DNA of 64,000 nucleotides from the sequence record OQ743992. One strand, written 5' to 3'. The notes under the pieces were generated by a model, which saw nothing but the letters and a program-made list of their open reading frames with translations, was not told the DNA's origin and did not search any database. Position 1 is the first letter of the stretch. Each line of letters begins with the position of its first letter. This document shows, piece by piece, positions 47,919-54,927 of the stretch. This stretch comes from Escherichia phage vB_EfeM_pEP20. The translations under genes and the position numbers were made by a program.

Positions 47919-48080
47919 AAGGAGAAACCACAATGTACGTCAGAGACATACTGTATAAGTCTTCTTATAAAGTATAACTCTGTAAAAAAGCCCTGTCTAA
48001 AAATACTCTTCGGTAGCGAAAGGAAGAATACTTATAGCAGGGCATTATTATTATTTTAATTGAGAGAGAGTAAAATAACT

Positions 48081-48156
48081 TGGAGAATCCGAAGGGACTC
48101 GAACCCTTATAAACCTGTTTTGCAGACAGGCACATAGCCATTTCTGTCACGGATTC
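48081..48156 (-). tRNA. tRNA-Cys (anticodon GCA)
   Basis: Hand-folded: perfect 7-bp acceptor, anticodon loop CTGCAAA, T-arm AAGGG-TTCGAGT-CCCTT, discriminator U, CCA encoded. Confidence 0.75.
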
Positions 48157-48160
48157 AAAT

Positions 48161-48253
48161 TGGAGGAAGATACCAGACTTGAACTGATACACCGATTTCT
48201 CAGCTACTGGCAGTTTAGCAAACTGCTCCCTTACCTTTTAGGGTTAATCTTCC
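48161..48253 (-). tRNA. tRNA-Ser (anticodon GCT), class II
   Basis: Perfect acceptor GGAAGAT/ATCTTCC, anticodon loop TTGCTAA, about 20-nt variable arm, T-loop TTCAAGT. Confidence 0.75.
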
Positions 48254-48254
48254 A

Positions 48255-48989
48255 TTATTTCTGTAATGCGTTCTTCATTTCTGGTGTTGCAATAGTGTCA
48301 ATTACACCAGTTTTACAAGCATCATCAAACCAGTCTGGTAAGATACCTGCTAAGAACCCATTGATATTCGTTTTAAGGTACTCTGCAATAAGGGCAGCTT
48401 CTTCTTCAATCATCTGCACAACTTCATCTGCATAAGCTGTAATCTTTGAGATACCTTCATTAATCTTGCTAACAGCTTGGTTAGCTAAATCAGAAATAGT
48501 ATCAAGACCTTTATCAATAGCATCTTGTAAGTCACTTAATACATCGTTAACACCGTCTAGTGCACTGTTAATTGTGTCAATAGCTTTTTGACCATATTCT
48601 GTAGCAACACCCATAATACCACTAAATGGTGTACAACCAACTTGCTCTCCTGCTGCACCCATAACATTGGAATATCCTTTTGCTACCTGCATACGTGATG
48701 AAAACTCATCAATGGACTTTTGACCGTAATCTGTCAGTGTCTTAGTGGTTGATGTAGTGCTTGTCAGACTCGTTGTAAAGCTGTTAAGCAGAACTGTTGT
48801 AAGTCCAGCGGCAACAAGTTTATCCTTTATTGTAGGGTCTGTTACAGAGCTAATAGAGCTTACAAGTGATGTAGAGGCAGCTACGGTTCCACCGAGAACT
48901 GCTGCACCAGTAATAAGGGGATTAGAAAACCCTCTACCGGTTTTTAAGAGACCAAAAATCTCCTTACCTTGTTCTGTCATCTCTTTCAT
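48255..48989 (-). CDS. hypothetical protein with hydrophobic segment and coiled-coil region, embedded in the tRNA array
   Basis: Start taken at ATG 48989 (MKEMTEQ...) behind AAAGGTG; the longer track start would overlap a tRNA-like gene. Confidence 0.45.
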   Translation of the reverse strand: MKEMTEQGKEIFGLLKTGRGFSNPLITGAAVLGGTVAASTSLVSSISSVTDPTIKDKLVAAGLTTVLLNSFTTSLTSTTSTTKTLTDYGQKSIDEFSSRMQVAKGYSNVMGAAGEQVGCTPFSGIMGVATEYGQKAIDTINSALDGVNDVLSDLQDAIDKGLDTISDLANQAVSKINEGISKITAYADEVVQMIEEEAALIAEYLKTNINGFLAGILPDWFDDACKTGVIDTIATPEMKNALQK

Positions 48990-49005
48990 TAAGCACCTTT
49001 GAAAT

Positions 49006-49080
49006 TGGTAGTTCAGTGGGATTTGAACCCTCTTCTCATGTTTTTCAGACACGCGCTTTAACCATATAAGCTACTTGGAC
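49006..49080 (-). tRNA. tRNA-like gene with Phe-type anticodon arm (GAA); acceptor stem does not pair, possible pseudo-tRNA
   Basis: Good D-arm (GCTT/AAGC) and anticodon arm (loop CTGAAAA), T-loop TTCAAAT, but 5' GTCCAAG cannot pair with 3' TGAACTA. Confidence 0.35.
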
Positions 49081-49087
49081 TATAAAT

Positions 49088-49163
49088 TGGGGTGACCTAC
49101 GGGATTTGAACCCGTATAGACCATGTTCACAGCATGGGTCATTACCATTTATGATAAGGCCAC
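49088..49163 (-). tRNA. tRNA-His (anticodon GTG)
   Basis: Acceptor GTGGCCT/AGGTCAC, D-stem TCAT/ATGA, anticodon loop CTGTGAA, T-arm ACGGG-TTCAAAT-CCCGT. Confidence 0.7.
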
Positions 49164-49194
49164 ATTTAAGGACTCTCGTAAGAATCCTTAGAAG

Positions 49195-49270
49195 TGGCAG
49201 CGGCATAAGGATTTGAACCTTAATAAGACAGCTTCAGAGACTGCTGCATTGCCAGTTATGCTATACCGCT
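49195..49270 (-). tRNA. tRNA-Gln (anticodon CTG)
   Basis: Acceptor AGCGGTA/TGCCGCT, D-stem GCAT/ATGC, anticodon loop CTCTGAA. Confidence 0.6.
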
Positions 49271-49275
49271 AAATT

Positions 49276-49354
49276 TGGTACTCCATATCGGATTCGAACC
49301 GATACATAACACAGATTTTAAGTCTGGCCTCTCTGCCAATTGGAGTAATGGAGC
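49276..49354 (-). tRNA. tRNA with Leu-type anticodon TAA but short variable arm (atypical)
   Basis: Acceptor GCTCCAT/ATGGAGT, perfect T-arm ATCGG-TTCGAAT-CCGAT, Leu-like D-loop AATTGGCAGAG, anticodon loop CTTAAAA, discriminator A, variable region only about 7 nt. Confidence 0.5.
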
Positions 49355-49356
49355 AT

Positions 49357-49432
49357 TGGCGGGGGATGCTGGAATTGAACCAGCTTCTTCGATTTCAAAG
49401 ACCGAGGTTTTAACCTTGTAAACTAATCCCCT
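49357..49432 (-). tRNA. tRNA-Gln (anticodon TTG)
   Basis: D-stem GTTT/AAAC, anticodon arm TCGGT-CTTTGAA-ATCGA, T-arm GCTGG-TTCAATT-CCAGC; first acceptor pair mismatched. Confidence 0.6.
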
Positions 49433-49440
49433 TTAAATCT

Positions 49441-49998
49441 TTACTTTCTTAGTGGATGAATAAAGAATGCCAACATAACTCTTTCCCTTGAGAATGCTCT
49501 TTCTTCTGGGACAACACTTTTTAGTTTCCATCCAATATAAATTCTCCAGTAAAACTGTTTACCAAAGACTTTAATTGATGGGATAAAAGCGAATAATCCC
49601 CAAGCATTACTGTTCCACATTAGGAGATAACCAGTCTGATTATCTTCAGGGTCAGAACTTACGTTGATATTACCTTTCCACTTAGTAACATCTTTTACAT
49701 CTCTTCCTAATACATGGTAAGAGAAGTTATAAGCTTTGTTTCTCCAGAGCCATCCAACTCTCTGCATATAAACACCAAGCTTACCAATCTTTCTAATCTT
49801 AGCCCATCTCTCAACGTGGCCTTTGTCACCATCAATCGGGTTGTCATAGGTCTCCATCCATCTGAATCCAAAAGGTAGATGCCCTTTCTTCTCGCTGTAG
49901 AATGGAACCACAAATGGTGCTAAGATTACTGCTAAGATTGCTGCAAATGGTTCTAGCAAAGCTAGGAAAATCCATGAAGCATATTTTAAATATCTCAT
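49441..49998 (-). CDS. hypothetical membrane protein (185 aa) inside tRNA array
   Basis: N-terminal hydrophobic helices (IFLALLEPFAAILAVILAPFVVPF). Confidence 0.45.
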   Translation of the reverse strand: MRYLKYASWIFLALLEPFAAILAVILAPFVVPFYSEKKGHLPFGFRWMETYDNPIDGDKGHVERWAKIRKIGKLGVYMQRVGWLWRNKAYNFSYHVLGRDVKDVTKWKGNINVSSDPEDNQTGYLLMWNSNAWGLFAFIPSIKVFGKQFYWRIYIGWKLKSVVPEERAFSRERVMLAFFIHPLRK

Positions 49999-50237
49999 CG
50001 TCTAATCCTTGTAAGGAGATAAGTGTTATTATTTGTTTCTGAGTTTTCTGGTAACATTGTCTCAAAATTGACACTTTTAAGTTGTCTTCCACCAAAGTAA
50101 TGACCAATAAATTTTTCTACTCTTATTGGGTCGCATTCCCAGCCGACTTTCAAGAAAATGTGGGTATCTATAGTGGGAACCCTTACAAACTCAACACTAT
50201 TGGAATTTTCATGTTCAACGACTATTAATGTTTGCAT
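49995..50237 (-). CDS. hypothetical protein (80 aa) inside tRNA array
   Basis: Track ORF with overlap to downstream gene. Confidence 0.4.
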   Translation of the reverse strand: MQTLIVVEHENSNSVEFVRVPTIDTHIFLKVGWECDPIRVEKFIGHYFGGRQLKSVNFETMLPENSETNNNTYLLTRIRR

Positions 50238-50245
50238 AAATCCCT

Positions 50246-50321
50246 CTTACTTAATTGGCGCAGGATAAGGGATTCGAACCCCTATTAACAGCTTCGTAGA
50301 CTGTTGCTCTATCCATTTGAA
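50246..50321 (-). tRNA. tRNA-Arg (anticodon ACG)
   Basis: Perfect acceptor GCAGGAT/ATCCTGC, anticodon loop CTACGAA, T-loop TTCGAAT. Confidence 0.7.
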
Positions 50322-50326
50322 CTAAT

Positions 50327-50404
50327 CCTGCAAAATTGGTGTTCCAAGACGGATTCGAACCGTCACTAGTACAAGGTTTGAGCTTGCATCCTCTGCCAAT
50401 TGGG
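50327..50404 (-). tRNA. tRNA with Leu-type anticodon CAA but short variable arm (atypical)
   Basis: Acceptor GTTCCAG/TTGGAAC, Leu-like D-loop AATTGGCAGAG, anticodon arm GCAAG-CTCAAAC-CTTGT, perfect T-arm GACGG-TTCGAAT-CCGTC, discriminator A, 6-nt variable region. Confidence 0.5.
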
Positions 50405-50405
50405 A

Positions 50406-50480
50406 TACTGGAACATGGTACTCACTAAAGGACTTGAACCTTTTTCTTCATCTTGTAAGGGTGATGTTTTACCATATAAA
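50406..50480 (-). tRNA. tRNA-Val (anticodon TAC)
   Basis: Acceptor ACTCGCT/AGTGAGT, D-stem GTTT/AAAC, anticodon loop CTTACAA, T-arm AAAGG-TTCAAGT-CCTTT. Confidence 0.65.
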
Positions 50481-50577
50481 CTAAGCGAGTGTGAAAAGAG
50501 GTCTGAAGTTGTGCCGCTAACTCAACTCCGTGGAATTTGTTACGGTCTTCAGTTGACTCAAAGCGGTCTTTCACTTG

Positions 50578-50653
50578 ACCTCTAAATTGGTGCTCCCACA
50601 AGGATTCGAACCCTGATAAGTTGCTTACAAGGCAACCGTAATAGCCAATTATA
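50578..50653 (-). tRNA. tRNA-Thr (anticodon TGT)
   Basis: Acceptor GCTCCTA/TGGGAGC, anticodon arm GTTGC-CTTGTAA-GCAAC, T-loop TTCGAAT. Confidence 0.65.
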
Positions 50654-50660
50654 CGATAGG

Positions 50661-50735
50661 AGCATTAATTTGGAGCATCCAGAGGGAATCGAACCCTCAA
50701 CCTCAGTTTGGAAGACTGTAATTTTCCCGTTTAAA
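50661..50735 (-). tRNA. tRNA-Gly (anticodon TCC)
   Basis: Perfect acceptor GCATCCA/TGGATGC, anticodon loop CTTCCAA, T-arm GAGGG-TTCGATT-CCCTC. Confidence 0.7.
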
Positions 50736-50741
50736 CTATGG

Positions 50742-50817
50742 ATGCACTAATTGGTGGAGTCACTGAGAATTGAACTCAGTTCCCAAGTTTGCAAAACTCG
50801 AATTTTAACCATATAAA
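50742..50817 (-). tRNA. tRNA-Ala (anticodon TGC)
   Basis: Acceptor GGGGTCA/TGACTCC with the G3-U70 pair, anticodon loop TTTGCAA, T-arm CTGAG-TTCAATT-CTCAG. Confidence 0.75.
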
Positions 50818-50824
50818 CTATGAC

Positions 50825-50900
50825 CCCCATTGTTTGGTACAGGTGGATGGAATTGAACCCATCGTCTTACTGATTAAGAGTCAGCCGCATAACCATTTTG
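50825..50900 (-). tRNA. tRNA-Lys (anticodon CTT)
   Basis: Acceptor GCAGGTG/CACCTGT, anticodon arm GCTGA-CTCTTAA-TCAGT, T-stem GATGG/CCATC. Confidence 0.6.
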
Positions 50901-50907
50901 CTACACC

Positions 50908-50984
50908 TGCATTAATTTGGTACACCTAGAGAGATTCGAACTCACACTGAGCAGATTCTAAGTCTGCTGCCTCTACCAGTTGGG
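50908..50984 (-). tRNA. tRNA with Leu-type anticodon TAG but short variable arm (atypical)
   Basis: Acceptor GCACCTA/TAGGTGT, Leu-like D-loop CAACTGGTAGAG, perfect anticodon arm GCAGA-CTTAGAA-TCTGC, T-loop TTCGAAT, discriminator A, 5-nt variable region. Confidence 0.5.
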
Positions 50985-51249
50985 CTATAGGTGCATTAAA
51001 TCTTTTTAGAGAACTTCTAAGAACCTAAGCAACAAGGTTCCACAACAAGCTGTAATAACCTTAGAAGCCCTCTAAAAAGACCTAAATAGGTCTTTGCATA
51101 GTCTTGTTTAATCCGGTGACTAGAACCTTTGGAGAGCTTGATATTATCTCTTCTCCGTGACACCTACTAGGTGCTTTATCAGTGTGTACGACAATACACG
51201 AGGGATAAACCGAAAATGCGAGCAAGCATGGACGGTATAAATCTTATTA

Positions 51250-51339
51250 GGCGGTAAGTAAAGGAGTCGAACCCTCACCGTATCTCTACAGTGGCAACTG
51301 TTTTCAAGACAGTTTGGCTACCATTAGCCGCTACCTACC
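51250..51339 (-). tRNA. tRNA-Ser (anticodon TGA), class II
   Basis: Acceptor GGTAGGT/ACTTACC, perfect anticodon arm ACTGT-CTTGAAA-ACAGT, 20-nt variable arm, T-loop TTCGACT; CCA not fully encoded. Confidence 0.65.
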
Positions 51340-51352
51340 CCTAATAAGACTT

Positions 51353-51435
51353 TGGCATGGGACGGAGGAGTTGAACCACTTTGAAACGGTTTTGGAGGCC
51401 GTTGCTCATGCCTTAGAGTCTTAACATCGTCCCAT
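51353..51435 (-). tRNA. tRNA-like gene with Trp-type anticodon loop (CCA) and expanded 5' D region (atypical)
   Basis: Perfect 7-bp acceptor ATGGGAC/GTCCCAT with discriminator G and CCA; loop CTCCAAA on stem ACGG/CCGT; about 8 extra nt before the D-arm and a weak T-stem. Confidence 0.4.
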
Positions 51436-51587
51436 ACTTTAATTCGAAGCTTACCGTATTTTCGCAACACTGTAAAGCCCCTTCTCAGATTATTTACATG
51501 TTCTGGAAAACATGAGATACAGACCACCTCCTTACACGGAGACCCGATAAGGTCGTCTAAGCAATCTGCTAACTATTTGGCACACCC

Positions 51588-51664
51588 TACAGGATTCGAA
51601 CCTGTAACTAACGATTTAGAAGACCGTTGCTCTATCCAATTGAACTAAGGGTGCATTAATCTTT
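51588..51664 (-). tRNA. tRNA-Arg (anticodon TCT)
   Basis: Acceptor GCACCCT/AGGGTGT, D-stem GTTC/GAGC, anticodon arm ACGGT-CTTCTAA-ATCGT, T-arm ACAGG-TTCGAAT-CCTGT. Confidence 0.7.
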
Positions 51665-51991
51665 AAAGACTCTCTTAGAAAGCCCTTAAAGATGCCCACC
51701 TTATTAATCATACCGTGGGCTAGTACGCCAAATTCTTTGATGAGGGATTGGAAGACCTCACTGGTGTTTAGCCTATCAAGCTACTGCCAGAAAAACATTG
51801 TCGTTTGCATTTATTTTAAATTTGCAAAATAGACGCTACGCAACGAAAACTATTCAGAATATGTACAACAAATTTCCCCACATTGTGTTACGTCTAACGC
51901 TCATGTATTGGTGTTTGAATTATACATATTATGAATCATTTTTAGTTACTATAAAGCGGTCACATCTCAATGTCAACAACTTTATTGAAAT

Positions 51992-52067
51992 TGGTGCTGG
52001 TAGGTGGAATCGAACCACCGATATTCCCTTATCAGGGGAGTGTTATAACCTTCTTAACTATACCAGC
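51992..52067 (-). tRNA. tRNA-Ile (anticodon GAT)
   Basis: Perfect acceptor GCTGGTA/TACCAGC, D-stem GTTA/TAAC, anticodon loop CTGATAA, T-arm GGTGG-TTCGATT-CCACC. Confidence 0.7.
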
Positions 52068-52068
52068 T

Positions 52069-52145
52069 TGGAGGTTCAGATGGGAATCGAACCCACATTC
52101 ATAGGGCTTATGAAACCCCTGCATTACCTTATCTGCGACTGAACC
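52069..52145 (-). tRNA. tRNA-Met (anticodon CAT)
   Basis: Acceptor GGTTCAG/CTGAACC, anticodon arm with three consecutive G-C pairs and loop TTCATAA, T-arm GTGGG-TTCGATT-CCCAT. Confidence 0.65.
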
Positions 52146-52149
52146 ATAT

Positions 52150-52225
52150 TGGTAGAAGTAGAGGGATTCGAACCCATCGCCTGTCAGATTAAAAGTCTGC
52201 CGCATCACCATTCTGCTACACTTCC
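52150..52225 (-). tRNA. tRNA-Lys (anticodon TTT)
   Basis: Acceptor GGAAGTG/TACTTCT (two G-U pairs), anticodon loop CTTTTAA, T-loop TTCGAAT with a weak stem. Confidence 0.55.
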
Positions 52226-52229
52226 ATTA

Positions 52230-52373
52230 AATTATCTTTGTAGATAAGCTACCCAGACTTGCTTAAGGTCTGTAGCGATGTGCCTTTTTGGGTTTAAATC
52301 TAGAATTTACCCTTTCACCCTTTGTGGTCGCATACTCACAGGTAAGCTTAATAACTTATCTACAAAGATAATT
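52230..52373. repeat. 19-bp perfect inverted repeat (AATTATCTTTGTAGATAAG) enclosing about 106 bp
   Basis: Arms at 52230-52248 and 52355-52373 are exact reverse complements; the enclosed sequence holds hairpin CCCAGAC-TTGCTTAAG-GTCTG. Confidence 0.6.
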
Positions 52374-52374
52374 A

Positions 52375-52506
52375 CCAGACCGTTGTTTATCATCTTAAGT
52401 GCTACCATTACACCAACTCGACATCTGCCGAGTGAAGGAATCGAACCTTCGCCTTTTCTTTACCGGAGAAATAGATTGTTTAAAGTTTGCTGTAAACGGT
52501 CTTCTG
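52375..52506 (-). ncRNA. candidate Y-RNA-like ncRNA U1 with embedded tRNA-like module (YrlA-like architecture)
   Basis: Minus-sense 5' CAGAAGACCGUUUACAGCAAAC ... ACGGUCUGG 3' with termini pairing (AGACCGU/ACGGUCU); interior has hairpin UUUCU-CCGGUAA-AGAAA, T-arm GAAGG-UUCGAUU-CCUUC, closed acceptor-like hairpin ACUCGGC-AGAU-GUCGAGU, D-arm GUG-UAAUGGUAG-CAC. Confidence 0.5.
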
Positions 52507-52519
52507 TAAATTTGTTGAG

Positions 52520-52604
52520 CCAGACCAAGTTTTAAATTTTTCAAAATTAAATTGGCTTGAAATTTTAAGTAACTTGCTGAATTTGGTCTTCTGCTCCTTT
52601 AAAG
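52520..52604 (-). ncRNA. candidate Y-RNA-like ncRNA U2
   Basis: Minus-sense 5' CAGAAGACCAAAUUCAGCAAG ... UUGGUCUGG 3'; terminal stem AGACCAA/UUGGUCU covaries with U1/U3. Confidence 0.45.
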
Positions 52605-52690
52605 AATACTCGTAAGAACTCTTTAAGGGAGGGGCTAAATAGCCCTCTCAAACATCATTTTGAAATACTTATTATAATTTGGCGGTTACG

Positions 52691-52768
52691 AAGGGATTCG
52701 AACCCTCATCATCTCCCGTGACAGGGGAGTATTTTAACCAGATTAAACTACATAACCTTCATTTGGTG
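52691..52768 (-). tRNA. tRNA-Asp (anticodon GTC)
   Basis: Acceptor GGTTATG/CGTAACC, perfect anticodon arm CTCCC-CTGTCAC-GGGAG, T-loop TTCGAAT. Confidence 0.7.
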
Positions 52769-52774
52769 TGCCGT

Positions 52775-52862
52775 GTAGGAGTCGAACCTACCGAGTCTTA
52801 ATGACAAGGGATTTACAGTCCCCACCGCTACCATCTACGGGATAACGACACATTTAAATTTG
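52775..52862 (-). tRNA. tRNA-Tyr (anticodon GTA), class II
   Basis: Acceptor GTGTCGT/ACGGCAC, anticodon loop CTGTAAA, long variable arm, T-arm GTAGG-TTCGACT-CCTAC. Confidence 0.65.
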
Positions 52863-52871
52863 GCGGTTAGT

Positions 52872-52948
52872 CAGGGATTCGAACCCTGTGCCATTCGCTT
52901 AACAGGCGACCGCACATACCTTATGTGCTTCCTAACCTTAATACATTG
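52872..52948 (-). tRNA. tRNA-Asn (anticodon GTT)
   Basis: D-stem GCAC/GTGC, anticodon loop CTGTTAA, T-arm CAGGG-TTCGAAT-CCCTG; last acceptor pair mismatched. Confidence 0.65.
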
Positions 52949-52959
52949 CCAGACCGTGT

Positions 52960-53020
52960 TTTTTCTTTTATCCACAAAAAAGTAGTTTGTTGCTGAATAC
53001 GGTCTTCTGCAAAATTGGAG
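52960..53020 (-). ncRNA. candidate Y-RNA-like ncRNA U3
   Basis: Minus-sense 5' CAGAAGACCGUAUUCAGCAAC ... CACGGUCUGG 3'; internal hairpin CUUUUUU-GUGGAU-AAAAGA. Confidence 0.45.
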
Positions 53021-53026
53021 GCGGGT

Positions 53027-53103
53027 GCAGGAGTCGAACCTGCCGATACCATGCTAATGAGACATGTGAGACGCCCTTTCTCTATACCCGCAATTCTTAA
53101 TGA
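53027..53103 (-). tRNA. tRNA with anticodon CAT (second Met, or Ile2 if lysidine-modified)
   Basis: Anticodon arm CATGT-CTCATTA-GCATG, T-arm GCAGG-TTCGACT-CCTGC; first acceptor pair mismatched. Confidence 0.6.
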
Positions 53104-53114
53104 CCAGACCAAAT

Positions 53115-53187
53115 CTCTTCTTTGTCCGATTTCGTGTCAGATGAATAAGCTTAAGTTTGCTGTAATTGGTCTTCTGTCAAAACTGGC
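53115..53187 (-). ncRNA. candidate Y-RNA-like ncRNA U4
   Basis: Minus-sense 5' CAGAAGACCAAUUACAGCAAAC ... UUGGUCUGG 3'; same conserved 5' core and covarying terminal stem as U2. Confidence 0.45.
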
Positions 53188-53194
53188 GTTCCAG

Positions 53195-53272
53195 AAGGGA
53201 TTTGAACCCTCAAATATCCACTTTGAAAGAGTGGTGACTTTACCATTTTGTCTACTGGAACATTAATTTGGT
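53195..53272 (-). tRNA. tRNA-Glu (anticodon TTC)
   Basis: Perfect acceptor GTTCCAG/CTGGAAC, perfect anticodon arm CCACT-CTTTCAA-AGTGG, T-loop TTCAAAT. Confidence 0.7.
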
Positions 53273-53279
53273 CTCTGTT

Positions 53280-53356
53280 GGAGGACTTGAACCTCCGGCC
53301 TTACCGCCCCAAACGGAACGCTCTACCAAGCTGAGCTAAACAGAGATAAACTTTTC
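53280..53356 (-). tRNA. tRNA-Pro (anticodon TGG)
   Basis: Perfect acceptor CTCTGTT/AACAGAG, D-stem GCTC/GAGC, anticodon loop TTTGGGG, T-arm GGAGG-TTCAAGT-CCTCC. Confidence 0.7.
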
Positions 53357-53475
53357 AAACTCTATGTAACCACTTTAACATTATTTTTTAGTGGTTGTCA
53401 AGAACTTTTTTTAAAATATTTTTCAGTATCTTAGAAAAGCTCTCATTTCGTTTCTATGTAGAACATATTAAAGGG

Positions 53476-53501
53476 TATTAAACACATTGTCAATACCCTT
53501 T
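53476..53501 (-). terminator. hairpin downstream of the Ro60-like gene (terminator or promoter-overlapping operator)
   Basis: Minus-sense GGGTATT-GACAATGTGTTT-AATACCC followed by TTTAATAT; the same stretch contains TTGACA, so it may be a promoter for the tRNA array instead. Confidence 0.35.
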
Positions 53502-53511
53502 TTAAAACTTT

Positions 53512-54927
53512 TTACCAGATGTAACGGTCAATCATTACTGCTTTGAGCATTACGCTGATTGGGTCAAACTTCTCACCACCGAGCAGAGCTTTTAAAGTGG
53601 CTGGAGAGAACCCTGATACCATTGCTACACCGTTATCCTTAACAGACACTTCGCAAGTACCATTACGGTTTGCTAAGTACCAGAATACCAGTTGTGGCAT
53701 TTCGTATCCAGCTTTTTTGTACTTACTACGAATTGCTTCAAAGTTTGTACGACCATTTGCACCATCAACCTGATTGAACTCCATATCAGAGAAGATGATA
53801 AGCTTACTTGGCATATCTTTCTGAGTCAAGTTGTTTCTCTTACCTGTCTCAAGAATACGGTCAAAAGCTGCTTGTAAGTTAGTTGAGCCATATTCAACAT
53901 GACGCATCACCTGACGATGACGGTTTTTCAAATCACCACTCAGTTCGATGAAATGAGGGTTTGTTGAATAAACCATTAACTCATTCTTAAAGCAACCCGT
54001 ATTGCGTTCTGCTACATACAAGGCAAGGGATACACCAATATCAAGGGCAGTGATTGAACCAAGATTCACCCAAGACATTGAGCTTGAAACATCAGTCATA
54101 CACAGGATGTTCTCACCTTCTGCCATCCAGTTTGGTAGTGCTTTCCACTGCTCATTAGCCACATCTGCATTACCATACTTAATAGATTTAATCACATCGT
54201 ATGGGTAAACAGCACCAGCGTTAATCTTAACCTCACCCTTTGAGAGTGACTCGATGTAAGCTTTGTAACGTTCCCCATCTTTACGGTTAAAGAGTTTTTG
54301 GTAACGTGCAGTAGCGAGTGAAGGAATCTTGCTGTAGTCAATCTTACCAAACTCATTAGCAGAGATTTTTTGCTCAACCGTATCAGACAGTGCAGATAAC
54401 AGTGTGCGATACTCCTTCTCACTTAAGTTTGCAAACTTACAGAAACGTTTTACAAACTGTTTGTGGCGTGGTTTTACTCGTGGTAACCACTTAGCCGCTA
54501 AACCTGCTGTTGCAGGGTCTAGTAATGCTGCTTCTAAATGTTTGAAGGCATCTGTCTCAAAACGAGTGCCTACGAAGATTTTGAAGTCATCAAAACGACC
54601 AAGTTCTGCAATCTTATCCATAATGCGAAGAACCTGTGTAGGTTCTAAAACTTTATCTTCAATCGCTTGAAGTAAAACAGTTCGGAAAGCTTTACGCTCA
54701 CCCATACCTTCTCGTACATCTCGCATATGCAGTAAAATACGAACTGCAACATCAACATCCTCACGCAAAGCTTTGTAGAACAGGTCTGGTAAGATTTCTA
54801 CATTGCTACGGCTTGAGCCAGCGGCTTTGTAAAAGTCTACCAGAGCAGACATTGATGAAGTATGGTTTACAGCACCATTTTCAGTTCGACCTGCATGAAG
54901 GTGCGCATGTTTAAATAACTCGCTCAT
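53512..54927 (-). CDS. Ro60-like protein (TROVE-like helical N-terminal region + von Willebrand A domain with MIDAS motif)
   Basis: 471 aa; helical N-terminal 260 aa, then DVSSSM MIDAS motif and a C-terminal region that aligns from memory with the Ro60 vWA domain (DVSASM...LGSI, GSTN vs GGTD, IFSDME vs VFTDNE). Confidence 0.5.
   Translation of the reverse strand: MSELFKHAHLHAGRTENGAVNHTSSMSALVDFYKAAGSSRSNVEILPDLFYKALREDVDVAVRILLHMRDVREGMGERKAFRTVLLQAIEDKVLEPTQVLRIMDKIAELGRFDDFKIFVGTRFETDAFKHLEAALLDPATAGLAAKWLPRVKPRHKQFVKRFCKFANLSEKEYRTLLSALSDTVEQKISANEFGKIDYSKIPSLATARYQKLFNRKDGERYKAYIESLSKGEVKINAGAVYPYDVIKSIKYGNADVANEQWKALPNWMAEGENILCMTDVSSSMSWVNLGSITALDIGVSLALYVAERNTGCFKNELMVYSTNPHFIELSGDLKNRHRQVMRHVEYGSTNLQAAFDRILETGKRNNLTQKDMPSKLIIFSDMEFNQVDGANGRTNFEAIRSKYKKAGYEMPQLVFWYLANRNGTCEVSVKDNGVAMVSGFSPATLKALLGGEKFDPISVMLKAVMIDRYIW

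What the first reader, a model, noticed from the sequence alone, without database searches (positions are those of the whole stretch)
48081..53356. Large minus-strand tRNA array (about 27 genes) that would cover all 20 amino acids, with protein genes and ncRNA candidates interspersed
Counting the atypical genes, the array holds anticodons for all 20 amino acids, with second genes for Ser, Gln, Arg and Lys and two CAT-anticodon genes. Three protein-coding genes (48255-48989, 49441-49998, 49995-50237) and the U elements are embedded in it. Large arrays are known in Felix-O1-like and T5-like phages, so the existence is not novel, but the completeness and embedded content are worth documenting.
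Basis: partly seen in the sequence, partly recalled or inferred. Interest (0 to 1): 0.4.

Follow-up and report, generated by a model that had tools for sequence, protein, structure and literature searches.

The report
Phage tRNA array hiding Y-RNA-like genes
The stretch is the well-known tRNA gene cluster of a Felix-O1-type phage, but it also holds an unannotated odd tryptophan tRNA and four small RNA genes that look like partner RNAs of the Ro60-like protein encoded next door, a pairing that recurs in many unrelated phages.

Summary
ARAGORN minus-strand tRNA genes at 48081-53345 and none elsewhere in the window. They cover 19 amino acids; Trp is missing. Standard tools miss it, yet 8 of its 19 base pairs show compensatory changes across relatives. 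It is present in 235 phage records and unannotated in all 30 records listed.

The three embedded protein genes are confirmed. The window is a Felixounavirus, whose array and its codon-compensation rationale were published in 2010.

The new part is the repeated "U elements" (U1-U4, 53179-52372). All share a covarying helix that starts AGR and ends YCU-G, followed on the 5' side by CAGCAA. U4 also carries a T arm, a closed acceptor-like hairpin and a D arm, the layout of bacterial YrlA Y RNAs.

The adjacent gene (53512-54927) has a Ro60 fold. Models trained only on distant phages recover U1-U4. The motif clusters within 1 kb of this gene family in 41 of 75 distant loci. One relative lacks both gene and elements.

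No Rfam family or held paper describes this RNA family. Protein binding and function are inferred, not shown.

The parts
53512..54927 (-).
   Evidence: Pfam and PHROG hits. AlphaFold2 model has pLDDT 87.3 and pTM 0.88. The top 11 Foldseek PDB hits are all full-length Ro60/TROVE (2i91, 1yvr, 2nvo, 9kop, 9l5y; E 2e-7 to 6e-6, TMq up to 0.65). MIDAS residues D279, S281, S283, T349 and D381 are invariant in 43 homologues.
53465..53493 (-). promoter-like site (TTGACA-17-TAATAT) between the Ro60-like gene and the array
   Evidence: Consensus scan. Sites overall are no more frequent than in shuffles, so this is inference only.
53372..53401 (-). promoter-like site (TTGACA-18-TAAAGT, with TG) just upstream of tRNA-Pro
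   Evidence: Consensus scan; inference only.
53269..53345 (-). tRNA-Pro(TGG)
   Evidence: ARAGORN; Rfam 57.7 bits.
53184..53261 (-). tRNA-Glu(TTC)
53100..53179 (-). U1, short Y-RNA-like element. Outer helix UGAC/GUCA, internal loop AGA versus G, inner helix AGACCAA/UUGGUCU, then UUACAGCAA.
   Evidence: Fold. Model R1, trained only on distant phages, scores it 33.2 bits, E 2.1e-4. It fills the 91-nt gap between tRNA-Glu and the CAT tRNA.
53016..53092 (-). tRNA(CAT) no. 1. Atypical: U1.C72 mismatch and U at position 37.
   Evidence: ARAGORN. No Rfam hit. The Felix O1 homologue has a Cove score of 28.9.
52946..53012 (-). U2, short Y-RNA-like element. Outer helix UUGC/GCAA, inner helix AGACCGU/ACGGUCU, then AUUCAGCAA.
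   Evidence: R1 scores it 36.6 bits, E 4.1e-5. It fills the 78-nt gap between the CAT tRNA and tRNA-Asn.
52861..52937 (-). tRNA-Asn(GTT)
52764..52851 (-). tRNA-Tyr(GTA), long variable arm
   Evidence: ARAGORN. Below the Rfam tRNA threshold.
52680..52757 (-). tRNA-Asp(GTC)
52517..52596 (-). U3, short Y-RNA-like element. Outer helix GAGC/GCUC, inner helix AGACCAA/UUGGUCU, then AUUCAGCAA.
   Evidence: R1 scores it 38.4 bits, E 1.8e-5.
52372..52509 (-). U4, long YrlA-like element. Same closing module (UUAC/GUAA; AGACCGUU/AACGGUCU; UACAGCAA) enclosing a V-like hairpin, T arm, 7-bp acceptor-like stem closed by a tetraloop, and D arm. The tRNA-like domain lies at 52398-52450.
   Evidence: Fold; permuted-tRNA detector. 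Model R2, trained only on distant phages, scores it 57.9 bits, E 1e-8, full length. Rfam tRNA gives a partial 24.7 bits.
52150..52225 (-). tRNA-Lys(TTT)
52069..52145 (-). tRNA(CAT) no. 2, canonical
51992..52067 (-). tRNA-Ile(GAT)
51948..51976 (-). internal promoter-like site (TTGACA-17-TATAGT, 11 of 12 matches)
   Evidence: Best-scoring site of the scan; inference only.
51578..51654 (-). tRNA-Arg(TCT)
51353..51435 (-). Atypical tRNA-Trp(CCA)-like gene. 7-bp acceptor stem (A1-U72), G73, encoded CCA, loop CUCCAAA. It has an invariant 10-nt connector GAUGUUAAGA before a 3-bp D stem and a 4-bp T stem.
   Evidence: ARAGORN mitochondrial mode only. Covariation across 10 relatives. Found in 235 phage records, with no tRNA feature over it in any of the 30 listed.
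51250..51339 (-). tRNA-Ser(TGA); the only gene of the array without an encoded CCA
   Evidence: (33.2 bits).
50918..50994 (-). tRNA-Leu(TAG)
50835..50910 (-). tRNA-Lys(CTT)
50752..50827 (-). tRNA-Ala(TGC)
50671..50745 (-). tRNA-Gly(TCC)
50588..50663 (-). tRNA-Thr(TGT)
50416..50490 (-). tRNA-Val(TAC)
50337..50414 (-). tRNA-Leu(CAA)
50256..50331 (-). tRNA-Arg(ACG)
49995..50237 (-). embedded CDS, 80 aa, PHROG 14202, function unknown
   Evidence: annotated as CDS in relatives.
49441..49998 (-). embedded CDS, 185 aa, DUF7338 / PHROG 2143; labelled 'holin' in some records, untested
49357..49432 (-). tRNA-Gln(TTG)
49276..49354 (-). tRNA-Leu(TAA)
49195..49270 (-). tRNA-Gln(CTG)
49088..49163 (-). tRNA-His(GTG)
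49006..49081 (-). tRNA-Phe(GAA)
48255..48989 (-). embedded CDS, 244 aa, DUF7217 / PHROG 2114, function unknown
48161..48253 (-). tRNA-Ser(GCT)
48081..48156 (-). tRNA-Cys(GCA), last gene of the array
47984..48043 (-). likely terminator of the array: GCCCTG...CAGGGC followed by TTTTTT
   Evidence: Read from the sequence. Not flagged by the scan because the loop is long; inference.

Best explanation
This is the tRNA region of a Felixounavirus (Felix-O1-like myovirus). It contains two functional layers that are transcribed together.

Layer 1 is a set of 26 ordinary tRNA genes plus one atypical tRNA-Trp(CCA)-like gene. Nearly all encode their 3' CCA. They are made as multi-gene precursors from sigma-70-type promoters and cut out by host tRNA-processing enzymes. 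They supply decoders for the A/U-ending codons that this AT-rich phage uses far more than its host. As shown for other phages in the literature, they may also replace host tRNAs destroyed by defence nucleases.

Layer 2 is four small RNA genes, U1-U4, lying between tRNAs just downstream of a gene for a Ro60-fold (ring plus vWA) protein. They belong to a widespread phage RNA family that always travels with this DUF2828-type protein. The family has a basal helix that starts AGR and ends YCU-G, and a single-stranded CAGCAA exactly 10 nt from the start of the helix. The interior is either A-rich (U1-U3) or a tRNA-like domain without free ends (U4, YrlA-like).

The most likely working is that of Ro60/Y RNA particles. 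The conserved basal module docks on the Ro60-like ring. The variable module tethers or gates a second factor, such as a host exoribonuclease or a tRNA-handling enzyme. This gives the phage control over structured-RNA or tRNA turnover during infection and defence evasion.

Shown here: the genes, their structures and covariation, the fold of the protein, the co-occurrence of gene and elements, and their joint absence from one relative. Inferred: transcription and processing, RNA-protein binding, the tethered partner, and the biological role.
For: **Array.**
- 26 ARAGORN calls, all on one strand; 24 pass Rfam's gathering score.
- 97% identity to Felixounavirus genomes.
- 26 of 27 genes end in an encoded CCA.
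- Codons cognate to the phage tRNAs are enriched against 46 E. coli genes: AGA 12x, CTA 3.3x, ACA 2.9x. Mean log2 ratio is +0.38 against -0.50, p = 0.016. This agrees with PMC3185647.

**Trp-like gene.**
- The cloverleaf is 98.4% paired, with 8 of 19 pairs compensatory across four genera; the shuffle and slid controls give 0.
- A1-U72, G73 and CCA match the E. coli TrpRS identity set (my own knowledge).

**Protein.**
- The model is confident, and its 11 best PDB matches are all full-length Ro60.

**U elements.**
- All four copies share one fold, and the outer helix covaries between copies.
- A descriptor search gives 126 hits on the gene's strand, 9 on the opposite strand and about 5 per shuffle. 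Hits occur in 57 of 82 loci.
- Density is 0.55 and 0.37 per kb within 1 kb of the gene, against 0.014-0.06 per kb elsewhere. 41 of 75 distant loci have a hit within 1 kb.
- 21 loci with no tRNA nearby still carry the element.
- Models trained only on phages whose protein is 39-47% identical recover U3, U2 and U1 (E 1.8e-5 to 2.1e-4; next hit E 0.87). They recover U4 at E 1e-8.
- All 13 distant permuted-tRNA domains sit inside a CAGCAA-type closing helix.
- Eight Ounavirinae relatives that have the gene keep 3 short and 1 long element.
- Phage Arno18 has the homologous array but neither the gene nor any element.

**Literature.**
- The V-T-AS-D order matches YrlA (PMC4201824).
- Bas63 gp130 lies directly upstream of that Felixounavirus's tRNA genes, so I take it by synteny to be the orthologue. 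It is described as Ro60-like and counters the Ppl defence. Its authors only guessed that 'some tRNA genes' might be Y RNAs (PMC11482910).
Against: No expression, processing or binding data exist for these RNAs.

The Ro60 relation is visible only at fold level. A sequence profile reaches Ro60 at E = 0.98 and Pfam TROVE is not hit.

The motif that bacterial and phage Y RNAs use for Ro60 (GNCGAA / CGAA) is absent from the closing module. Binding therefore cannot be transferred from known complexes.

The covariation counts on the training alignment of short forms are partly circular, because those sequences were selected for pairing.

About a third of distant loci show no element with my strict descriptor.

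The window's Trp-like copy has a U.U mismatch in its 4-bp T stem, and one relative also breaks an anticodon-stem pair. Some copies may therefore be decaying. Promoter-like sites are no more frequent than chance.
Confidence: 0.7

Rival explanations
1. The U elements are cis-acting signals of the tRNA precursor. They would be processing hairpins (for RNase III or RNase E), attenuators or spacers, with no dedicated protein partner.
For: They lie between tRNAs, U1 and U2 exactly fill their gaps, and they are hairpin-shaped. The array contains other long duplexes that look like RNase III substrates.
Against: The same motif sits next to DUF2828 genes in 21 loci that have no tRNA within 8 kb. It is absent from the homologous Arno18 array, which lacks the gene. 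A conserved single-stranded CAGCAA at a fixed distance, plus a complete tRNA-like domain, is not expected of a cleavage site.
Confidence: 0.08
2. The motif is a cis-regulatory element of the DUF2828 gene's own mRNA, for example an autoregulatory leader or trailer bound by the protein, rather than a free-standing small RNA.
For: In distant loci the highest density is within 1 kb upstream of the gene (0.55 per kb), which is where a 5' UTR element would lie.
Against: In the window and in eight relatives the elements lie downstream, separated from the gene by promoter-like sites and two or more tRNAs. There are up to six copies per locus (L073). Some copies carry a tRNA-like domain of the kind seen in trans-acting YrlA RNAs.
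Confidence: 0.12
3. The U elements are relics or targets of mobile DNA, such as homing-endonuclease sites or miniature repeats, or they are decayed tRNA pseudogenes.
For: HNH endonuclease genes are inserted at varying places in the array in relatives. U4 contains tRNA-derived arms.
Against: Helices covary while the motif stays fixed across phages whose proteins share only 39-47% identity. The strand is always that of the gene (126 against 9). The HNH insertions seen in relatives do not fall inside U elements.
Confidence: 0.04
4. The Trp-like gene is a non-functional pseudo-tRNA, so the array truly covers only 19 amino acids.
For: It is missed by ARAGORN's default and relaxed modes and by Rfam's tRNA model. 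It has a 10-nt connector, a 3-bp D stem, a 4-bp T stem with a U.U in the window, and a C.A at positions 31.39. UGG has no synonymous codon, so it gains nothing from codon-bias compensation.
Against: Compensatory changes occur in all four helices across four genera. The anticodon loop, G73, the CCA end and the odd connector are all invariant. It is retained even in Arno18. It encodes CCA like the functional genes around it.
Confidence: 0.3

Closest known systems
Felix O1 / Ounavirinae tRNA gene clusters (Whichard et al. 2010, PMC3185647)
   Same: Same genus-level sequence (95-97% identity), the same gene order, and the same codon-compensation pattern (AGA, ACA, CCA, GCA, GTA and others).
   Different: The published description lists 22 tRNAs found by tRNAscan-SE, with no Trp. 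It says nothing about the spacer RNAs or the Ro60-like nature of the upstream gene.
YrlA / YrlB Y RNAs of bacteria and some phages, partners of Ro60 (Rsr) (Chen et al. 2014, PMC4201824)
   Same: Encoded beside a Ro60-fold protein. The ends pair into a stem. The long form has V, T, acceptor-like and D elements in that order with a closed acceptor (a tRNA mimic), while shorter paralogues lack the tRNA-like domain. Several copies occur per locus.
   Different: The protein is DUF2828/DUF7788, not Pfam TROVE. The conserved RNA module is AGR-helix-YCU-G plus CAGCAA, not GNCGAA(N)G. Here the genes are interleaved with real tRNAs. Binding and modification are untested.
Thermus phage phiLo Ro60 with Yrl1/Yrl2 (NAR 2025, PMC12135203)
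   Same: A phage-encoded Ro60-fold protein with two or more adjacent small RNAs. The phiLo structure is among the fold matches (9l5y, 9kop).
   Different: The phiLo RNAs use the CGAA bulge motif and lie upstream of the gene. There is no tRNA array, and the sequence family is different.
Bas63 gp130 (PhageMaP preprint, PMC11482910)
   Same: Bas63 is a Felixounavirus, and gp130 lies directly upstream of its tRNA genes. By synteny it is the likely orthologue of ORF 53512-54927. It is reported as structurally Ro60-like and as a counter to the Ppl defence.
   Different: The authors suggested that some annotated tRNAs might be Y RNAs. Here the candidates are unannotated spacer elements, not the tRNAs, and they are defined by a motif shared across many phage lineages.
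T4 tRNA-cluster stable RNAs (species 1 and 2; my own knowledge, not checked here)
   Same: Small non-tRNA RNAs co-transcribed and co-processed inside a phage tRNA cluster.
   Different: No Ro60-like partner is known for them. No sequence comparison was made.

Membership tests
Bacterial-type tRNA (for the 26 standard genes) | Cloverleaf recognised by tRNA detectors or a covariance model | tested here: met
   ARAGORN finds 26 of 26. Rfam RF00005 at or above 29 bits finds 24 of 26. Tyr and CAT-1 fall below or are absent.
tRNA (for the Trp-like gene 51353-51435) | Four helices of the cloverleaf maintained in evolution | tested here: met
   98.4% of cells paired; 8 of 19 pairs changed on both sides; controls give 0.
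tRNA (for the Trp-like gene 51353-51435) | Canonical dimensions (2-nt connector at positions 8-9, 4-bp D stem, 5-bp T stem) and detection by standard models | tested here: not met
   10-nt connector, 3-bp D stem, 4-bp T stem. ARAGORN default and -ps80 miss it. Rfam gives only tRNA-Sec at 21.3 bits, E 1.2.
tRNA (for the Trp-like gene 51353-51435) | 7-nt anticodon loop with U33 and a purine at 37, discriminator base and 3' CCA | tested here: met
   The loop is CUCCAAA if C31.A39 closes the stem. G73 and CCA are encoded and invariant.
tRNA (for the Trp-like gene 51353-51435) | Aminoacylation and use in translation | not testable with these tools
   Needs acid-gel Northern blots or an in vitro TrpRS assay.
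Ro60 / TROVE proteins (for ORF 53512-54927) | HEAT-repeat ring plus C-terminal vWA domain with a MIDAS site | tested here: met
   Full-length Foldseek matches to Ro60 only. DxSxS, T and D are invariant.
Ro60 / TROVE proteins (for ORF 53512-54927) | Sequence membership (Pfam TROVE PF05731) | tested here: not met
   Pfam gives DUF2828 + DUF7788 only. The profile against PDB reaches Ro60 at E 0.98.
Y RNA / YrlA | Encoded adjacent to a Ro60 orthologue | tested here: met
   U1 starts 333 nt downstream of the gene. Density is about 6- to 40-fold higher within 1 kb of the gene than elsewhere in 75 distant loci. Gene and elements are both absent from Arno18.
Y RNA / YrlA | The 5' and 3' ends form a stem | tested here: met
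   Folds. The helix differs in sequence in every phage.
Y RNA / YrlA | Conserved Ro-binding motif GNCGAA(N)G / GGUCCGA near the 5' end | tested here: not met
   The only GNCGAA in U1-U4 lies in the T stem of U4 and is not conserved in distant long forms. The conserved motif is AGR...CAGCAA...YCU-G.
Y RNA / YrlA | tRNA-like domain in the order V, T, acceptor-like stem-loop, D | tested here: met
   True of U4 and of 13 distant long forms, compared with PMC4201824 section 6. U1-U3 lack the domain, as YrlB does.
Y RNA / YrlA | Physical binding to the Ro60 protein; tRNA-type modifications | not testable with these tools
   Needs RIP/CLIP, EMSA and modification mapping.
Any Rfam 15 family | Score at or above the gathering threshold | tested here: not met
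   Only tRNA in the window, and only tRNA and tmRNA in 8 distant loci.

The most novel reading that the evidence does not exclude
DUF2828-type Ro60-like proteins and their AGR/CAGCAA RNAs form a previously undescribed, widespread phage ribonucleoprotein. In Felix-O1-like phages it is built into the tRNA operon. Its tRNA-mimic member (U4) and A-rich members recruit or block host RNA-decay or tRNA-targeting enzymes. This would explain how the Bas63 orthologue defeats the Ppl defence, and would link phage tRNA arrays mechanistically to RNA-based counter-defence. The unannotated tRNA-Trp-like gene would then be a working, structurally deviant tRNA that completes a 20-amino-acid set.
Probability: 0.3. 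Interest if true: 0.8.

Novelty: new variant of a known kind. Interest (0 to 1): 0.58.

Why it matters
The tRNA array itself is textbook for this phage genus. Two things inside it are not annotated in the records examined.

**The Trp-like gene.** A conserved, structurally deviant tRNA-Trp-like gene is present in 235 deposited genomes. It would raise the coding set from 19 to 20 amino acids.

**The RNA family.**
- A family of small RNAs accompanies a large family of Ro60-fold phage proteins: more than 2,300 protein clusters, with the motif found in 50 of 75 distant loci.
- This gives a concrete RNA partner, with a testable recognition motif, for a protein already shown genetically to counter a bacterial defence system.
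- It extends the Ro60/Y RNA principle to a protein family that sequence methods do not link to Ro60.
- It shows that the spacers in phage tRNA clusters can hold genes of their own.

Tried and rejected
- **Rfam.** Gathering and E-value modes on the window and gathering mode on 8 distant loci found no family for the U elements. Weak tmRNA, permuted-tmRNA, miRNA and plastid-UTR hits in the gaps were treated as chance or as antisense tRNA matches.
- **Strict motif.** AGAAGACC...GGTCTG matches only close Felixounavirus relatives, so it was replaced by a structure descriptor.
- **Sequence searches against PDB.** The protein alone found nothing. The profile found nothing significant. Only fold comparison links the protein to Ro60.
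- **YrlA/CGAA motif.** It is not in the closing module.
- **Relaxed ARAGORN (-ps80).** The extra calls were rejected as artefacts: plus-strand Gln calls at 49079 and 49349, an undetermined call at 51990, and Arg(tct) at 49888-49962 inside the DUF7338 gene. The mitochondrial-mode 'Thr(ggt)' at 52426-52490 is the T/acceptor part of U4, not a tRNA.
- **R2 hits at 34.6 bits or lower in the window.** These are junctions of adjacent tRNAs (T arm of one, D arm of the next), a known false-positive class.
- **A fifth element at 50505-50565 (CTGAAGACC...).** It does not fit the family and has no R1 hit, but it is a separately conserved structured spacer.
- **Covariation on alignment A3.** Recorded, but not used as independent evidence because the sequences were chosen for pairing.

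Full report
**1. What is there**

ARAGORN finds 26 tRNA genes in the window. All lie on the minus strand between 48081 and 53345. Rfam's tRNA model confirms 24 at its gathering score. The two it misses are tRNA-Tyr (52764-52851, long variable arm) and the first CAT-anticodon gene (53016-53092).

There are two genes each for Ser, Gln, Arg and Lys, two CAT genes, and three Leu genes. That covers 19 amino acids, with no Trp.

The three embedded ORFs are real genes:
- 48255-48989 is DUF7217.
- 49441-49998 is DUF7338.
- 49995-50237 is PHROG 14202.

All three are annotated as CDS in relatives.

Megablast places the region in Felixounavirus. It is 97% identical to Escherichia phage ZX4221, and 405 phage records match. 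The Felix O1 genome paper already reports 22 tRNAs, none for Trp, and explains them by codon compensation (PMC3185647).

I repeated the codon comparison with 56 window ORFs against 46 E. coli K-12 genes. Codons cognate to the phage tRNAs are enriched: AGA 12-fold, CTA 3.3, ACA 2.9, TCA 2.4, TTA 2.3 and CCA 2.2. The mean log2 ratio is +0.38 for cognate codons against -0.50 for the rest, with one-sided Mann-Whitney p = 0.016. The array as such is therefore real, ordinary for this genus, and already known.

**2. The 27th gene**

The gap between tRNA-Arg(TCT) and tRNA-Ser(TGA) holds an 83-nt sequence at 51435-51353. ARAGORN's default and relaxed modes miss it, but its mitochondrial mode calls it Trp(cca).

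It reads AUGGGAC | GAUGUUAAGA | CUC-UAAGGCAU-GAG | C | AACGG-CCUCCAAAA-CCGUU | UCAAA | GUGG-UUCAACU-CCUC | C | GUCCCAU | G | CCA.

It is present in 235 phage records. None of the 30 listed records annotates a tRNA over it.

I aligned ten versions from Felixounavirus, Mooglevirus, Suspvirus and the unclassified Pectobacterium phage Arno18. In that alignment 98.4% of pair cells are standard pairs. Eight of 19 pairs carry changes on both sides: 4 of the 5 anticodon-stem pairs, 2 acceptor pairs, 1 D pair and 1 T pair. No shuffle reaches this, and structures with the 3' partner slid by 1-3 columns show none.

The anticodon loop, G73, the encoded CCA and the odd 10-nt connector are all invariant. 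A1-U72, G73 and CCA are the identity elements of E. coli tRNA-Trp (my own knowledge). Like 25 of the 26 standard genes, it encodes its CCA end.

It is therefore a conserved, structured, tRNA-derived gene. It fails the canonical dimensions: a 10-nt connector instead of 2, a 3-bp D stem, a 4-bp T stem and C.A at 31.39. In the window copy the T stem also has a U.U mismatch. Whether it is charged is open. I put roughly 0.5-0.7 on it being a working tRNA.

**3. The repeated spacer elements**

Four spacers carry CAGAAGACC...GGTCTGG (repeat families D13 and D14). All four fold the same way:
- a 4-bp outer helix that differs in each copy (UGAC/GUCA, UUGC/GCAA, GAGC/GCUC, UUAC/GUAA);
- an internal loop of AGA against G;
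- an inner helix AGACC../..GGUCU;
- a single-stranded (U)(U/A)CAGCAA.

U1 (53179-53100) and U2 (53012-52946) exactly fill the gaps on either side of the first CAT tRNA. Ordinary 5' and 3' tRNA processing would therefore release them.

U4 (52509-52372) encloses a small hairpin, a perfect T arm (GAAGG-UUCGAUU-CCUUC), a 7-bp acceptor-like stem closed by a tetraloop, and a D arm. It looks like a tRNA whose ends have been moved to the anticodon side. This is the V-T-AS-D layout that Chen et al. described for YrlA, the tRNA-mimicking Y RNA of bacterial Ro60 (PMC4201824).

**4. The neighbouring gene**

ORF 53512-54927 lies immediately upstream on the same strand. It is DUF2828 + DUF7788 and PHROG 850 'RNA-binding protein'. 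Sequence searches do not connect it to Ro60.

An AlphaFold2 model built on 43 homologues is confident (pLDDT 87.3, pTM 0.88). Its 11 best PDB matches are all full-length Ro60 proteins: Xenopus, human, Deinococcus Rsr and Thermus phage phiLo (E 2e-7 to 6e-6). After those come only isolated vWA domains. The MIDAS residues are invariant in the family.

A 2024 preprint on the Felixounavirus Bas63 reports that gp130 lies directly upstream of the tRNA genes, is structurally Ro60-like, and counters the Ppl defence. Its authors speculated that some annotated tRNAs might be Y RNAs (PMC11482910). By synteny I take gp130 to be the orthologue of this ORF.

**5. Test of the link in unrelated phages**

The protein family is large, with more than 2,342 clusters. 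I fetched 80 IMG/VR loci around homologues; 75 of them share only 39-47% identity with the window protein.

Five tests bear on the link.

- **Permuted-tRNA detector.** A detector for T arm, then acceptor hairpin, then D arm, excluding ARAGORN tRNAs, found 13 such domains in 9 distant loci, all on the gene's strand. Every one is enclosed by a helix followed by CAGCAA or a close variant.
- **Descriptor search.** The descriptor was an AGR-initiated helix of 6-11 bp, 1-4 nt, CAGCAA/CCGCAA/CAGCAT/CAGCAG, 3-200 nt, the 3' strand, then G. It gives 126 hits on the gene's strand, 9 on the other strand and about 5 per shuffle, in 57 of 82 loci. Hit density is 0.55 per kb in the 1 kb upstream and 0.37 per kb in the 1 kb downstream of the gene. 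Elsewhere it is 0.014-0.06 per kb, and it is 0 inside the gene. 41 of 75 distant loci have a hit within 1 kb. Of the 44 distant loci without any tRNA, 21 still have the element. The distance from the first A of the helix to CAGCAA is a constant 10 nt.
- **Covariance models trained only on distant phages.** The short-form model R1 (39 sequences) finds U3, U2 and U1 in the 64-kb window at E 1.8e-5, 4.1e-5 and 2.1e-4. The next hit has E 0.87. The long-form model R2 (13 sequences) has a structure that is 91% paired with 14 of 17 pairs compensatory. It finds U4 at 57.9 bits, E 1e-8. All lower hits are tRNA-tRNA junctions.
- **Close and mid-distance relatives.** Eight Ounavirinae phages that have the gene each keep three short elements and one long one.
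- **A natural co-absence.** Pectobacterium phage Arno18 has a homologous tRNA array, including the Trp-like gene. Its whole genome has no Ro60-like gene (best tblastn E 0.096) and no element.

The elements therefore follow the protein gene, not the tRNAs.

**6. Comparison with what is known**

In architecture and genomic logic this is a Ro60/Y RNA module. As a family it is distinct:
- The protein is not a Pfam TROVE member.
- The RNA lacks the GNCGAA/CGAA motif of the bacterial and phage Y RNAs described so far.
- Rfam 15 has no model that hits it, in the window or in eight distant loci.

Searches of the held literature for DUF2828, for YrlA with phage, and for Ro60 with phage tRNA found no description. 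That library is incomplete, so prior description elsewhere cannot be excluded.

**7. Mechanism, with status**

*Shown:* gene content, RNA structures with covariation, the protein fold, co-localisation, and the joint absence of gene and elements from one relative.

*Inferred:*
- Transcription starts from the promoter-like sites at 53493-53465, 53401-53372 and 51976-51948. It ends at the hairpin plus T-run at 48043-47984.
- Host tRNA-processing enzymes release the U RNAs.
- The conserved basal module docks on the Ro60-like ring.
- The variable module, either an A-rich loop or a tRNA mimic, tethers or gates a second factor.

By analogy with Rsr-Y RNA-PNPase, and with phiLo Ro60, which attenuates host PNPase (PMC12135203), the partner may be a host exoribonuclease or a tRNA-handling enzyme. 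The outcome may be protection of phage RNAs and tRNAs, or evasion of a defence system such as Ppl.

*Rivals:* pure processing or terminator hairpins, a cis-regulatory element of the DUF2828 mRNA, mobile-element relics, and, for the Trp-like gene, a pseudogene. Each is weighed in its own section of this report.

**8. Verdict**

Its value lies in the embedded content:
- an unannotated deviant tRNA-Trp-like gene;
- four members of an apparently undescribed Y-RNA-like family paired with a Ro60-fold protein family that is widespread in phages.

I rate this a new variant of a known kind, of moderate to good interest. It is directly testable, because a genetic phenotype already exists for the protein.

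Noticed in passing
window 51250-51339 (-): tRNA-Ser(TGA) is the only gene of the array without an encoded 3' CCA; it ends ..GCC then UAA. It also has the lowest Rfam score (33.2 bits). The other 25 tRNAs and the Trp-like gene all encode CCA.
   Followed up: partly
window 53016-53092 (-): The first CAT-anticodon tRNA has a U1.C72 mismatch, which is initiator-like. It lacks the three G-C pairs in the anticodon stem and has U at position 37. Rfam does not hit it at all. It sits exactly between U1 and U2.
   Followed up: partly
window 50488-50590 (-): The 97-nt spacer between tRNA-Val and tRNA-Thr folds strongly (-29.9 kcal/mol, z -4.1). It is 96-100% identical even in Mooglevirus and Suspvirus, more conserved than the Trp-like gene is in those genera (86-95%). 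It is possibly another small RNA. It is not a member of the U family.
   Followed up: partly
window 52226-52375 (-) and 50995-51100 (-): Two very long near-perfect duplexes (24 bp closing about 100 nt, z -6.3; 27 bp, z -5.3) look like RNase III-type substrates. The first is found only in close Felixounavirus relatives.
   Followed up: partly
window 52253-52272 (-): A mini hairpin AGAC-CUUAAGCAA-GUCU-GG inside the long duplex resembles a minimal U element: the same AGAC/GUCU-GG base with AGCAA in the loop.
   Followed up: no
window 49165-49189, 51662-51686, 52599-52623: Three hairpins share a loop like UUCUUACGAG (repeat family D19). The equivalent of the first is annotated as a terminator in phage Michonne.
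   Followed up: no
L002 5237-5665; L083 4968-5420: HNH homing endonuclease genes are inserted at different positions of the array in relatives: between Asp and Tyr in phiST56, and between Ser(TGA) and Leu(TAG) in Michonne. The window has none.
   Followed up: no
L059 13715-14132; L025 8605-9054: Two distant phage contigs that carry the DUF2828 gene also encode a tmRNA next to their tRNA arrays (Rfam 88 and 75 bits).
   Followed up: no
L015, L028, L044, L045, L066 (short elements listed): The A-rich interiors of many short elements repeat the pentamer AGCAA two or three times. This suggests that the single-stranded motif, not only the helix, is the recognised unit.
   Followed up: no
L002 3854-3936; window 51353-51435: Some copies of the Trp-like gene carry destabilising changes: a U.U in the T stem in the window and in phiST56, and in phiST56 also a broken anticodon-stem pair. 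These could indicate relaxed selection in part of the genus.
   Followed up: partly
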